Assembly (NCBI GenBank): GCA_041550555.1
Contig: JBFEOO010000009.1
Location: forward strand, 2,162-66,161
Source: Arenicellales bacterium
GTDB taxonomy: Bacteria; Pseudomonadota; Gammaproteobacteria; Arenicellales; JBFEOO01
Direction: 5' to 3'
DNA length: 64,000 bases
In this document: piece after piece, positions 21,729 through 27,059 of the stretch
Layout of the letters: every line of letters starts with the position of its first letter
Position numbering within the stretch: position 1 is the stretch's first letter
The notes under the pieces: generated by a model
What the model saw: the letters and a program-made list of their open reading frames with translations, nothing else
What the model was told of the DNA's origin: nothing
Databases searched by the model: none
Program-made: the position numbers and the translations under genes

Positions 21729-22045
21729 CGATGTCCCCGTTTCAATTTGCAGGGCTGTAGTTTACATTCGACAAGGCGGCCGCTCGCACTAGCATCCCAG
21801 TGCGAGGGTCCGGCAATCAGCAGGCGCAGAGTAGCACGGTTCGGGTCAGAAGGCTTGCCGATGCCCGTCGATCCCCGTCGCCGCGCACTGCGTGTCCGCC
21901 AGTCGGATCGACCGAAACGACTTGTCGGGTCACGCCTCGCGAATGCACGCGGACCGCGTGAGCACCGGCGCCGGAACGCTGCGGCCGAATCGCAATATTG
22001 TCCAATGGGTCGATTTTCAATGTCAAAGCGCGGCAGGGGGATTCG

Positions 22046-23146
22046 ATGATCATCAATCGGGCCCTCATCCGCGAGGTTCTCCAGACCAGCAGTGCCGTCA
22101 CGCTGGTGATACTGAGCATCTTCCTGGTGGTGCGCCTCGTCGGTTTCCTGCGCCAGGCAGCGGCGGGCGACATTCCGGTTGATAGCGTGTTGATCCTGCT
22201 GCTTCTGCGGCTGGTGACCTACATGGACGTGATTCTCCCGCTGATACTGTATGTCGCCATTCTCATGGTGCTCGGCCGCTGGAACAGAGACAACGAGATG
22301 GCCGTCATTTCCGCGTGTGGGATCGGCCTCAAGAACTTTCTGCGACCGATGGCGTATCTGCTGGCGGGCATCGGCATCGTGGTCGGCATGTTTTCGCTTT
22401 ATCTATCGCCGCTGGCGGTCCAGGTGAGCGAAACCCTCGAGGAGGAGTTCAAGTCGCGCACCGAAGTGTCCGGCGTCGTCCCCGGTGTGTTCGTCGAGAC
22501 ACGTCGAGGCGGGAGCGTGTACTTCGTCGAAGAGTTCGACCGGCAGGCGGACGAATATCGGAATATCTTCGTCTACCTCTCCTCGTTCGCCAAAGACGGT
22601 ATCGTGGTGGCGGCCAGCGGTCGCCGATATGTCGATGACCTGACCAACGACGACTTCCTGGTGCTCAAGAACGGCACGCGCTACGAAGGCAATCCCGGTA
22701 GGCCGGACTACCGTATCATCGAGTTCGAGAGCTACGCGATTCGCATCCAGCAACGGCCGCCGGAGGTGCCCAGAATGCCCGTGCGTGGGCGGACTTCGGC
22801 GGAGCTTTTTCGATCCAATCATCCCCGTTTGATTACCGAGTGGCATTGGCGCTTGGCCAAGCCGCTTTCGTTGCCGGCGCTCATGCTCTTCGCACTCGCC
22901 ATCAGCAATGTCGATGTTCGACGAAGTCGTCTGCCGAACATGCTGGTCGCATTCGCTTTCTACTTTTCCTATGTCAATGCTGCCGGTTTTGCAGTGGCGC
23001 TGATGAAGAAGGGTACATTGAATCCCAGCGTGGGGATGTGGCTCGTCCACGTGATTTTTCTGGCCATTGCGATCTATGCCTTCATACGCCGGGAACGCAA
23101 CAGGCCGTTTTTCCCCCGGCTTCAATGGCGAGCTGCGTCGCCTTGA
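22046..23146 (+). CDS. lptF: LPS export ABC permease LptF
   Basis: MIINRALIREVL, DNEMAVISACGIG, six-TM YjgP/YjgQ architecture; divergent from pepA. Confidence 0.92.
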   Translation: MIINRALIREVLQTSSAVTLVILSIFLVVRLVGFLRQAAAGDIPVDSVLILLLLRLVTYMDVILPLILYVAILMVLGRWNRDNEMAVISACGIGLKNFLRPMAYLLAGIGIVVGMFSLYLSPLAVQVSETLEEEFKSRTEVSGVVPGVFVETRRGGSVYFVEEFDRQADEYRNIFVYLSSFAKDGIVVAASGRRYVDDLTNDDFLVLKNGTRYEGNPGRPDYRIIEFESYAIRIQQRPPEVPRMPVRGRTSAELFRSNHPRLITEWHWRLAKPLSLPALMLFALAISNVDVRRSRLPNMLVAFAFYFSYVNAAGFAVALMKKGTLNPSVGMWLVHVIFLAIAIYAFIRRERNRPFFPRLQWRAASP

Positions 23147-24207
23147 AGATCCTCGACGTCTATATCGGTCGCACGATCCTGCACCAGACGGCAGTCGTCC
23201 TGGGAGTGTTGCTGGGGTTGTTCGCGTTCGTTGGCTTTGTCGATGAGGTGGGCGAGCTCGGGACCAACAACTACACGCTGTTCAAGATCGTAAAGTTCAT
23301 CATCTTGTCGATGCCGCGCTTGATTTACGAGCTCTTCCCGATGGCGGCCCTGCTCGGGACGATGCTCGGATTGTCGATGCTCGCGCAGGACTCGGAGCTC
23401 GTAGTGCTTAGGGCTAGTGGAGTTTCGCTCTACCGGATTGTCGGTGCCGCCTTGAAGATGGGTCTCGTGTTTGTCGCGTTAGCGGTGGCCATGGGCGAGC
23501 TGGTCGTGCCAACGACTGAGACCCGCGCACAGCGAGGAAGAGCGGAGGCGCTACAGAAGGACATCCAGCAGCAGACCGATTTCGGTTTGTGGATGCGCGA
23601 CGGTCAAACGATCGTCAACGTCGGCGAGGTGTTGCCCGACCTCACTTTGCTGCGCCTGCGGATTTTCGAATTCGACGGCAGCGGTCAGCTGCGTTCGCTG
23701 GTCTACGCGCGTGAGGGGCGCTACGAGGAGACGGGGTGGCAGCTCTGGGATGTCGGCCAGACGTTCATTGATCAGCAGACCGTCACCACTCGACAGGTTG
23801 ACACGGCGGCGTGGACCACCAGCGTCTCGCCGGCCATTCTGTCGGTCTTCCTGGTGAGCCCTGAGCAGCTGTCCGCTTGGCAGCTGAGCAAGTACATCGA
23901 TCACCTGCGCGAGAACAGTCAGGAAACCGACAGTTTTGAGCTGGCCTTCTGGAGCAAGGTGGGGCTGCCTCTGGCGACCGCGGTCATGGTGGTGCTCGCC
24001 GTGCCGTTCGTTTTTCGGCAGGTGCGCAGCGGCGCTCTCGGGCGAGGTCTGCTGGTAGGCATCATGCTGGGACTCGGCTTCTATGTTGCCAACAAGGGTT
24101 TCGGCTACGTCGTCCTCGTGTACGGCATCGCTCCCATAGCGGGTGCCACGGCGCCGCTCGCCGGCTTCCTGATGGCGGCGCTCTTCATGTTGCGACGCGT
24201 TTCGTGA
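23143..24207 (+). CDS. lptG: LPS export ABC permease LptG
   Basis: TTG start overlapping the lptF stop; KILDVYIG, SELVVLRASGVS, GLWMRDG and FELAFWSK. Confidence 0.93.
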   Translation: MKILDVYIGRTILHQTAVVLGVLLGLFAFVGFVDEVGELGTNNYTLFKIVKFIILSMPRLIYELFPMAALLGTMLGLSMLAQDSELVVLRASGVSLYRIVGAALKMGLVFVALAVAMGELVVPTTETRAQRGRAEALQKDIQQQTDFGLWMRDGQTIVNVGEVLPDLTLLRLRIFEFDGSGQLRSLVYAREGRYEETGWQLWDVGQTFIDQQTVTTRQVDTAAWTTSVSPAILSVFLVSPEQLSAWQLSKYIDHLRENSQETDSFELAFWSKVGLPLATAVMVVLAVPFVFRQVRSGALGRGLLVGIMLGLGFYVANKGFGYVVLVYGIAPIAGATAPLAGFLMAALFMLRRVS

Positions 24208-26135: not shown

Positions 26136-27059
26136 ATGCGCGCGACCGCCCGACTTCCAAAGTGGCCCACGCTTGAGCTCGAGCGATCCGTCGACGGCAT
26201 CGCGTGTGGCGTCGACGAGGCGGGCTACGCACCGATCGCCGGACCGTTGGTGGCCGCCGCCGTGGTGCTGCCCACCGGCCCCAAGCCGCGCTGCCTGCAA
26301 GGATTGACCGACTCGAAGCTGTTGTCCCCGGCAGCGCGGGCCAGGTACTTCGACGTCATTCGAGAGGTTGGCGAGGTCGGCGTCGGGATCGCGAGCGTTA
26401 GCGAGATCGACGCGCTCAACGTTCTGCGCGCAGATATGTGCGCCATGCGCCGCGCGGTGGAGGCACTGGGCGTGGCGCCCGATAGCGCGCTCGTGGACGG
26501 TCGCGCGGCCCCAGCCCTGGCATGCTCCGTGCTCACCGTCGTCAAGGGCGATCGGCGCTGCCTCTCGATTGCGGCAGCCTCTGTCGTCGCCAAGGTTGTC
26601 CGTGACCGTCTGATGAAAGAGCTGGCGGCCGATTTTCCCGGCTACGGTTGGGACGCGAACGTCGGTTACGGCACCGACCGTCACTATCTCGGTCTGCTGC
26701 GCAAAGGTCCCACTCGGCACCACAGGCGGAGCTTCGCCCCTCTGACGACGCTGTTCGGTCGAGATCGCGAAGCGCTCGCCGGGCTGCGATTCGGCTGCCT
26801 CGAACGCGCCAGCGACCTCTCGCGACCGCGGCTGGTGCAGCTGCGACGGGATCTGTTCGCCGTCTTCGAGGGCGGTCGTCAGCACATCGGCGTGTTGAAG
26901 CGGCTGGGCGGGCGCTGGGGATTCCAGGCCGTGGGCTACGACGGGTCGGGCGAGCCCGTCTGCGGCGGCGGCCCTTGCGCCGCATGGCACGGTGCGCCCG
27001 TCTGCGCACCGGAGCACAGCGCGCTCGTTCGCCTGTTCTCGGCGCCCCCCCTCGCCTGA
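26136..27059 (+). CDS. Atypical ribonuclease HII-family protein with a C-terminal extension
   Basis: GVDEAGYAP.AGP (normally DEAGRGP), DSKLL, LVDG, VKGD, SIAAASVVAKVVRD, GYGT and HRRSF, followed by about 95 extra residues. Confidence 0.85.
   Translation: MRATARLPKWPTLELERSVDGIACGVDEAGYAPIAGPLVAAAVVLPTGPKPRCLQGLTDSKLLSPAARARYFDVIREVGEVGVGIASVSEIDALNVLRADMCAMRRAVEALGVAPDSALVDGRAAPALACSVLTVVKGDRRCLSIAAASVVAKVVRDRLMKELAADFPGYGWDANVGYGTDRHYLGLLRKGPTRHHRRSFAPLTTLFGRDREALAGLRFGCLERASDLSRPRLVQLRRDLFAVFEGGRQHIGVLKRLGGRWGFQAVGYDGSGEPVCGGGPCAAWHGAPVCAPEHSALVRLFSAPPLA

What the first reader, a model, noticed from the sequence alone, without database searches (positions are those of the whole stretch)
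26136..27059. RNase HII paralogue with an altered GRG junction motif and an unknown ~95-aa C-terminal domain
Seen: the acidic catalytic residues (DE, LVDG, KGD) and the GYGT tyrosine are retained, but DEAGRGP reads DEAGYAP. After HRRSF the protein continues with an unrecognised beta-rich, Cys-containing extension. The gene is outside the usual lpxB-rnhB-dnaE context. Established: the GRG motif helps RNase H2 recognise the ribonucleotide at RNA-DNA junctions. Inference: a second RNase HII-like nuclease with shifted substrate specificity, such as a damaged or modified nucleotide or pure hybrids, possibly horizontally acquired.
Basis: partly seen in the sequence, partly recalled or inferred. Interest (0 to 1): 0.6.

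Follow-up and report, generated by a model that had tools for sequence, protein, structure and literature searches.

The report
Sole RNase HII with extra domain
This gene is not a spare copy but the bacterium's only RNase HII, a remodelled version with an altered sugar-sensing loop and an undescribed extra domain that has taken over from the ordinary gene in a scattered set of marine-type Gammaproteobacteria.

Summary
Window 26136-27059 (+) encodes a 307-aa RNase HII. It keeps all four catalytic carboxylates and the junction-sensing tyrosine, reads G-Y-A where the family has G-R-G, and carries a conserved beta-rich C-terminal domain of about 90 aa.

The "paralogue" reading does not hold. This is the only type-2 RNase H found in the 92.6%-complete genome. 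The usual lpxB-rnhB-dnaE slot is empty, with lpxB 62 bp from dnaE.

More than 120 protein clusters share the same architecture (303-312 aa, G-[C/Y/V]-A). They form one clade (bootstrap 100) nested among canonical gammaproteobacterial rnhB. In 15 of 17 genomes carrying this form it is the sole RNase HII. One genome keeps an internally deleted GRG-type remnant between lpxB and dnaE.

The C-terminal domain has no Pfam or NCBIfam family. Its confident AlphaFold model (pLDDT 93) has no convincing fold match. It also occurs as free-standing proteins of about 80 aa.

Most likely this is a derived RNase HII that still incises at ribonucleotides and has displaced the canonical enzyme. The extra domain would then be a substrate- or partner-binding add-on. 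A changed substrate preference is possible but untested.

I rate it a new variant of a known kind, of moderate interest.

The parts
26136..27059 (+). Whole ORF, 307 aa plus stop: long-form RNase HII (rnhB)
26136..26195 (+). N-terminal segment of about 20 aa (M..LPKWPTL.LER), specific to the long form
   Evidence: Invariant or near-invariant in long forms; gapped in 38-47 of 49 canonical sequences
26205..26738 (+). RNase HII catalytic domain plus helix-loop-helix (residues 24-201)
   Evidence: Pfam PF01351. The model superposes on E. coli RNase HII 7uwe_C with TM 0.93 and rmsd 1.2 A
26214..26219 (+). Catalytic D27-E28 (Tm D18/E19)
26223..26231 (+). G30-Y31-A32, in place of the GRG 2'-OH-sensing motif
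26283..26291 (+). K50-P51-R52, a basic insertion before the DSK motif, specific to the long form
   Evidence: Gap in 49 of 49 canonical sequences; 5-residue gap in the Tm alignment
26496..26504 (+). Catalytic D121 (Tm D107) followed by G122-R123; R123 replaces the canonical Asn
26550..26555 (+). Catalytic D139 (Tm D124) and R140, specific to the long form
26667..26669 (+). Y178, the junction-sensing tyrosine (Tm Y163)
26739..26828 (+). Linker, residues 202-231, with two short helices and near-invariant R218-F219
26829..27056 (+). Undescribed C-terminal domain, residues 232-307: five strands and one helix; core H250, G252, K255, W261, F263, Y268, G279, P280, H285
   Evidence: no family or fold match

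Best explanation
The ORF encodes the genome's single type-2 RNase H. It belongs to a derived "long-form" subfamily of bacterial RNase HII that arose once from a gammaproteobacterial rnhB. It later replaced the canonical gene in scattered lineages, including this one.

Shown:
- It is the sole copy, and the canonical slot is empty.
- The long forms are monophyletic.
- They share a fixed set of changes: an N-terminal motif, G-[C/Y/V]-A instead of GRG, a KPR insertion, new Arg residues next to two catalytic Asp, and a C-terminal domain of about 90 aa.

Inferred:
- The enzyme still nicks DNA 5' of embedded ribonucleotides and at RNA-DNA junctions, so it starts ribonucleotide excision repair.
- The 2'-OH would be read by the backbone amides of the G-Y-A loop together with Tyr178.
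- The role of the lost Arg side chain would be taken over by the new arginines (R123, R140) or by the extra domain.
- The C-terminal domain is packed rigidly on the catalytic domain and serves as an additional binding surface, for the nucleic-acid substrate or for a partner protein.
For: Sole copy:
- One PF01351 match in G000, and it is this ORF.
- tblastn with five canonical rnhB proteins finds nothing else.
- In G000 the order is lpxA-lpxB-dnaE-accA, with 62 bp between lpxB and dnaE.
- All 19 same-order relatives examined have lpxA-lpxB-rnhB(GRG)-dnaE.

Displacement:
- lpxB abuts dnaE in four other long-form genomes.
- G310 keeps an internally deleted GRG-type rnhB remnant in that spacer.
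- In 15 of 17 long-form genomes the long form is the only RNase HII.

Retained machinery:
- The DEDD carboxylates, K61, Y178, P33, and the two arginines that brace the GRG loop (R156 and R197, equivalent to Tm R141 and R182) are invariant.
- Published mutagenesis: the GRG contacts are made by the backbone, and R22A has little effect (PMC3025331).
- The fold superposes on E. coli RNase HII with TM 0.93.

One origin: the long forms are one clade at UFBoot 100 / SH-aLRT 99.

Fixed domain arrangement: the full-length model has pLDDT 93.9 and pTM 0.90.

Precedent: Kochiwa et al. 2007 found one RNase HII per genome in 219 of 220 bacterial species that have the gene, and proposed that a domain-bearing RNase HI replaced the plain one (PMC1950709).
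Against: - No biochemical or expression data.
- The third Gly of GRG is conserved in all 49 canonical sequences sampled, and per PMC3025331 also in RNase HIII. Its replacement may change the loop geometry.
- rnhB is dispensable in several bacteria, so loss of the canonical gene does not prove that the long form does the same job.
- Two MAGs (G444, G447) hold both forms. That fits either a transitional state or non-redundancy, unless those bins are mixed.
- The role of the C-terminal domain rests on inference only. I could not inspect model coordinates for contacts.
Confidence: 0.68

Rival explanations
1. Changed specificity. The long form is a type-2 RNase H whose remodelled junction loop and extra domain shift it away from single-ribonucleotide incision, for example towards longer RNA/DNA hybrids, R-loops, or damaged or mismatched ribonucleotides. 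On this reading the canonical activity was simply lost in these lineages.
For: - G32A replaces a Gly that is invariant in 49 of 49 canonical sequences.
- The Arg that sits in the minor groove and steadies E19 on single-rNMP substrates is lost.
- Basic residues are gained around the active site: the KPR insertion, R55, R123 and R140.
- A new domain is rigidly attached.
- Two MAGs hold both forms.
Against: - Tyr178, which RNase HIII lacks and which explains HIII's failure on junctions, is invariant.
- R22A has only small effects.
- The near-perfect mutual exclusion with canonical rnhB, and the decayed remnant in G310, argue for redundancy.
Confidence: 0.22
2. One reading: a second, horizontally acquired RNase HII paralogue that works beside a canonical rnhB in this genome.
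For: - The gene lies outside the lpxB-dnaE context.
- The form is patchily distributed: only G000 among 41 genomes of its order, and 6 of 61 in G446's family.
- It coexists with a canonical copy in G444.
Against: - No second PF01351 match and no tblastn hit in G000.
- The canonical slot is assembled and empty.
- The gene's GC (0.697) and GC3 (0.805) are typical of the genome, which has gene GC 0.665 +/- 0.032 and GC3 0.828 +/- 0.043.
Confidence: 0.04
3. A catalytically dead or purely regulatory RNase HII-like protein.
For: The GRG motif is altered, and there is no activity data.
Against: - All four carboxylates, K61, K137 and Y178 are invariant across a clade that has diverged to about 60% identity.
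- The score exceeds the NCBIfam equivalog cut-off.
Confidence: 0.04

Closest known systems
Canonical bacterial RNase HII (E. coli RnhB, PDB 7UWE chain C; T. maritima RNase H2, PDB 3O3F/3O3G)
   Same: - 43-45% identity.
- Same fold: TM 0.93 and rmsd 1.2 A to 7uwe_C.
- Same DEDD active site.
- Same DSK lysine, junction tyrosine, and GRG-bracing arginines.
   Different: - GRG is replaced by G-[C/Y/V]-A.
- A KPR insertion is present.
- R123 and R140 sit next to catalytic Asp residues.
- A conserved N-terminal motif of about 20 aa is present.
- There is an additional C-terminal domain of about 90 aa.
- The gene is not in the lpxB-rnhB-dnaE cluster.
RNase H enzymes with accessory extensions or fusions: the T. 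maritima RNase H2 C-terminal extension and B. stearothermophilus RNase H2 N-terminal extension (Permanasari 2013, as cited in PMC13492167); RNase HI with dsRHbd (PMC1950709); M. smegmatis RNase HII-(p)ppGpp synthetase fusion MS_RHII-RSD (PMC7591505, PMC5224475)
   Same: An RNase H core carries an appended module. For dsRHbd-RNase HI, the domain-bearing form is proposed to have replaced the plain orthologue.
   Different: The module here is unrelated in sequence to any of those. It has no family assignment and no convincing fold match.
RNase HIII (rnhC)
   Same: It is a type-2 RNase H, and its central Arg of GRG is not conserved.
   Different: RNase HIII keeps both glycines, lacks the junction tyrosine, and has an N-terminal TBP-like domain. 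This protein keeps the tyrosine, loses the third Gly, and carries its extra domain at the C-terminus.
Free-standing hypothetical proteins of about 76-120 aa in Pseudomonadota (consensus HVGNLK.I.G.WKFKAIGYD..G.VIPGGGPLTDRHNT)
   Same: They are homologous to the C-terminal domain: E down to 1e-10 with a single sequence, and 1e-28 to 1e-31 with the profile. They share the same invariant H, G, K, W, F, Y, GP and H.
   Different: They are not fused to RNase HII and lack Cys281. They have no known function. In one family the gene sits directly downstream of an AMP-binding enzyme gene.

Membership tests
RNase HII (Pfam PF01351; NCBIfam NF000595 rnhB equivalog) | Profile score above the curated cut-off | tested here: met
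   PF01351 scores 129.8 bits against a cut-off of 25.8. NF000595 scores 210.5 bits against 167.
RNase HII | Four catalytic carboxylates (Tm D18, E19, D107, D124) | tested here: met
   D27, E28, D121 and D139 align and are invariant in the clade.
RNase HII | Junction-sensing tyrosine (Tm Y163) | tested here: met
   Y178 lies in the VGYGT stretch and is invariant.
RNase HII | GRG 2'-OH-sensing motif | tested here: not met
   The protein reads G30-Y31-A32. None of 124 long forms has GRG, against 48 of 49 canonical sequences. The first Gly and the following Pro are kept.
RNase HII | Arginines that brace the GRG loop (Tm R141, R182) | tested here: met
   R156 and R197 are invariant.
RNase HII | RNase H fold plus C-terminal helix-loop-helix | tested here: met
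   Foldseek to 7uwe_C gives E 9.7e-22, TMt 0.93 and rmsd 1.2 A.
RNase HII | Cleaves 5' of a single embedded ribonucleotide | not testable with these tools
   This needs an enzyme assay.
Gammaproteobacterial rnhB orthologue by position | Located between lpxB and dnaE | tested here: not met
   The gene lies between tauD and malQ. The lpxB-dnaE slot is empty in G000. The slot is occupied in 19 of 19 same-order relatives.
RNase HIII | N-terminal TBP-like domain; junction tyrosine absent | tested here: not met
   There is no N-terminal domain, only a motif of about 20 aa. The tyrosine is present.
TerD domain (PF02342), for the C-terminal domain | Profile match over the domain | tested here: inconclusive
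   Only the last beta hairpin, about 22 aa, matches weakly. Pfam gives E 0.24 for one free-standing homologue. The PDB profile search gives E 0.42-0.95.
ThermoDBP-RP2 ssDNA-binding fold (PDB 4PSN), for the C-terminal domain | Structural similarity above noise | tested here: inconclusive
   Foldseek gives E 0.48 and TMq 0.41. VIA-align gives Z 4.1, rmsd 3.3 A over 66 residues, tied with unrelated OspA and OspB.

The most novel reading that the evidence does not exclude
The long form is a functionally distinct class of type-2 RNase H. A rebuilt junction-sensing loop (no Arg, no third Gly) and a new-fold C-terminal module together would give a different mode of substrate recognition or recruitment. 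The free-standing homologues of about 80 aa would then be a new family of small nucleic-acid- or partner-binding proteins.
Probability: 0.25. Interest if true: 0.7.

Novelty: new variant of a known kind. Interest (0 to 1): 0.5.

Why it matters
RNase HII is the near-universal enzyme that starts removal of ribonucleotides from DNA, and its GRG-plus-tyrosine junction sensor is treated as invariant.

This clade shows that two of the three GRG residues can be replaced in nature, always together with a new domain and new arginines at the active site. The resulting enzyme is good enough to displace the standard gene repeatedly.

That gives a natural experiment on how the 2'-OH is sensed. It also flags an unannotated domain family, fused and free-standing, with a confident predicted structure and no known relative. 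Current annotation calls all of these proteins simply "ribonuclease HII" and hides the difference.

Tried and rejected
Function and fold of the C-terminal domain. None of these gave a usable match:
- Pfam, NCBIfam, PHROGs and PADLOC, on the domain and on free-standing homologues.
- A profile search of PDB sequences.
- Foldseek against PDB and BFVD.
- VIA-align against 48,161 chains, best Z 4.1.
- ESM Atlas. The fused domain gave no hit. The free-standing form matched only unnamed hypothetical-protein clusters.

Other lines that led nowhere:
- The multi-repeat proteins among the exhaustive phmmer hits (P0124, P0136, P0137, P0154, P0155). The three I read (P0124, P0136, P0154) are tandem-repeat artefacts; I set aside P0137 and P0155 on the same multi-stretch hit pattern.
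- Conserved neighbours of the long-form gene. None is shared across the clade; only three related loci share synteny.
- Mutual information between position 31 and the rest of the protein. The top partner is residue 253 in the C-terminal domain, but the signal is weak and confounded by relatedness.
- A beta-clamp-binding tail. I rejected this because the C-terminal residues form a helix of the domain fold and only L300 is conserved.
- A compositional sign of recent transfer. None was found.
- Promoter and terminator scans. No hits.
- Literature search for such an RNase HII. Nothing found.

So I have no expression or sample information.

Full report
THE GENE

Window 26136..27059 (+) is a 307-aa ORF. 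It matches Pfam RNase_HII over residues 24-201 at E 1.6e-37. It exceeds the curated cut-off of the NCBIfam rnhB equivalog NF000595, scoring 210.5 bits against 167.

Alignment to T. maritima RNase H2 (PDB 3O3G) pairs these residues:
- D27/E28 with D18/E19.
- D121 with D107.
- D139 with D124.
- K61 with K47.
- Y178 with the junction-sensing Y163.
- G30-Y31-A32 with G21-R22-G23.

The DNA at 26223-26231 reads GGC TAC GCA. The two arginines that Rychlik et al. describe as bracing the GRG loop (Tm R141 and R182) correspond to R156 and R197. The proline after the motif is also kept.

NOT A PARALOGUE

The genome holding the window (G000) has 155 contigs and is 92.6% complete. It has one PF01351 match, and that match is this ORF. 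tblastn with five canonical rnhB proteins finds nothing else credible. RNase HI is present elsewhere in the genome.

The canonical locus is assembled. On contig C13 the order is lpxA, lpxB, dnaE, accA, with 62 bp between lpxB and dnaE and no rnhB. All 19 loci examined from other families of the same order show lpxA-lpxB-rnhB-dnaE. Their rnhB is short and GRG-bearing, and 45-51% identical to this catalytic domain.

A WIDESPREAD, COHERENT SUBFAMILY

The protein search returned 120 clusters of mostly 303-312 aa (a few reach about 360) at 59-95% identity over 93-100% of the query. Where the sources name them, they come from Woeseiaceae, Wenzhouxiangella, Lentisalinibacter and "Xanthomonadales". 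Scanning species genomes added loci labelled Woeseiaceae, Lysobacterales, Thioalkalivibrio and Wenzhouxiangellaceae.

The motif tally is clean:
- None of 124 long forms has GRG. Position 31 is C, Y, V, R or M; position 32 is A in 121 and S in 3.
- 48 of 49 canonical sequences have GRG, and 49 of 49 have Gly at the third position.

Positions fixed in at least 90% of long forms and present in at most 10% of canonical sequences:
- An N-terminal motif of about 20 aa.
- C24 and A32.
- A K50-P51-R52 insertion, and R55.
- R123, next to catalytic D121, where canonical sequences have Asn.
- R140, next to catalytic D139.
- W172, and Y184-L185-G186.

A maximum-likelihood tree of the catalytic domain (82 rows, IQ-TREE LG+G4) puts all long forms in one clade at UFBoot 100 / SH-aLRT 99. 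The nearest canonical rows are from two families of G000's own order, at 99/76 and 98/95. The root is at the midpoint, and the bootstrap had not fully settled (quick version).

DISPLACEMENT OF THE CANONICAL GENE

I examined 17 genomes that carry the long form.
- In 15 it is the only PF01351 match. In two of these the gene is cut by contig ends.
- lpxB abuts dnaE directly in G442, G443, G445 and G446, as it does in G000.
- In G310 the 415-bp lpxB-dnaE spacer holds a remnant. It reads AGVDEAGRGPLAAPVV...RDSKVL and then jumps to HRRSFAPV. This is a canonical GRG-type rnhB with its middle deleted.
- G444 keeps an apparently intact canonical copy beside lpxB in addition to a long form.
- G447 has a canonical copy, plus a long-form fragment on a 1.5-kb contig. 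Mixed bins cannot be excluded for G444 or G447.

The long form is patchily distributed:
- Only G000 among 41 genomes of its order.
- None among one genome from each of 150 other families of the class, judged by the catalytic domain staying at or below 52% identity.
- 6 of 61 genomes in G446's family.
- Both forms occur within family f89: G310 has the long form and G115 the canonical one.

The gene's composition is ordinary for G000. Its GC is 0.697 and GC3 0.805, against gene means of 0.665 +/- 0.032 and 0.828 +/- 0.043. Any transfer into this lineage is therefore not recent.

The pattern fits Kochiwa et al. 2007 (PMC1950709). They found one RNase HII per genome in 219 of 220 bacterial species with the gene. 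They argued that redundant RNase H genes are not inherited together.

THE C-TERMINAL DOMAIN

Residues ~232-307 are conserved across the clade. They have no Pfam, NCBIfam, PHROGs or PADLOC match.

An exhaustive phmmer search of 1.84 billion representatives found 42 hits. Apart from tandem-repeat artefacts, these are other RNase HII fusions and free-standing proteins of 76-120 aa. The free-standing consensus is HVGNLK.I.G.WKFKAIGYD..G.VIPGGGPLTDRHNT. G, K and W are invariant, and H, F, A, G, Y, G, G, P, H are nearly invariant.

The domain is rare:
- 8 of 401 genomes in the class sample.
- None besides G000 in a 400-genome sample of the phylum.

In family f217 six of seven genomes have a free-standing copy. 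In four of five loci it lies directly downstream of an AMP-binding enzyme gene. Elsewhere its neighbours differ.

AlphaFold2 gives confident models:
- Full length: pLDDT 93.9 and pTM 0.90.
- Domain alone: pLDDT 93.1.
- The domain has strands at 232-237, 240-244, 249-257, 260-268 and 274-276, and a helix at 294-302.

The high pTM for a two-domain protein implies a fixed packing. This is an inference, because I could not read the coordinates.

No fold relative stands out:
- Foldseek against PDB: best E 0.48.
- VIA-align against 48,161 chains: best Z 4.1, below the tool's stated noise level.
- BFVD: best E 0.13.

Two weak, unconfirmed leads remain. One is the ssDNA-binding ThermoDBP-RP2 (4PSN), which appears in both PDB structure searches. 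The other is the last beta hairpin of TerD.

MECHANISM

According to Rychlik et al. 2010 (PMC3025331):
- The 2'-OH of the junction ribonucleotide is bound by backbone amides of G21, R22 and G23 and by the hydroxyl of Y163.
- G21S is damaging.
- R22A leaves most activities intact and only slightly lowers cleavage at a single ribonucleotide, where R22 steadies E19.

In this protein the first Gly, the tyrosine, the loop-bracing arginines and the whole active site are kept. The enzyme has also replaced the canonical one. The best-supported reading is therefore a working RNase HII that still initiates ribonucleotide excision repair. R123, R140 and/or the extra domain would compensate for the lost Arg side chain (inference; confidence about 0.68).

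A real change in substrate preference cannot be excluded (about 0.22). The third Gly is otherwise invariant, and the substrate face has gained several basic residues. A dead enzyme or a true second paralogue in this genome is unlikely.

CONTEXT IN THE WINDOW

The neighbouring genes are lptF and lptG (+), an RDD-family gene (-), tauD (-), rnhB (+), malQ (-) and glgX (-). rnhB is flanked by a divergent and a convergent neighbour, so it is probably transcribed alone. Simple promoter and terminator scans found nothing.

CAVEATS

- Rows from unpublished genomes: G079 supplied one free-standing example (L028) and one canonical row (L079) in the tree and the motif counts. G181 appears only in the tally. 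No conclusion depends on them.
- Earlier notes of this scan held nothing on this gene.

Noticed in passing
L044:1195-1610 (G310, between lpxB and dnaE): A remnant of a canonical GRG-type rnhB with an internal deletion. The N-terminal ~45 codons are joined to the HRRSFAPV end. It sits in the normal rnhB slot of a genome that carries the long form.
   Followed up: yes
L026:730-1806 and L033:598-1653 (G310 contig C2, about 2.9 kb apart): A tandem segmental duplication holds two long-form rnhB copies. The second is frameshifted within the linker and C-terminal domain. Each lies downstream of sequence that resembles the C-terminal part of an Lhr-type helicase; I did not verify that resemblance with a profile.
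   Followed up: partly
L085, L086, L087, L088 (family f217): The free-standing homologue of the C-terminal domain lies immediately downstream of, and in places overlaps, an AMP-binding enzyme gene (PF00501) in four of five loci of this family. In L089 the neighbours are instead an AlaX-like tRNA_SAD protein and a DsbA-like protein.
   Followed up: partly
L050 (G444) and L039: One Wenzhouxiangellaceae MAG holds both an apparently intact canonical rnhB next to lpxB and a long-form rnhB split over two contig ends. This is either a transitional state or a mixed bin.
   Followed up: partly
window 21998-24207: lptF and lptG have unusually low GC for this genome: 0.585 and 0.611, the 1st and 6th percentile of long ORFs.
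   Followed up: no
I did not examine it.
   Followed up: no
G000:C101:2331-2486: A single weak tblastn hit (E 0.002, 38% over 52 aa) from one of five canonical rnhB queries. It is probably chance.
   Followed up: no
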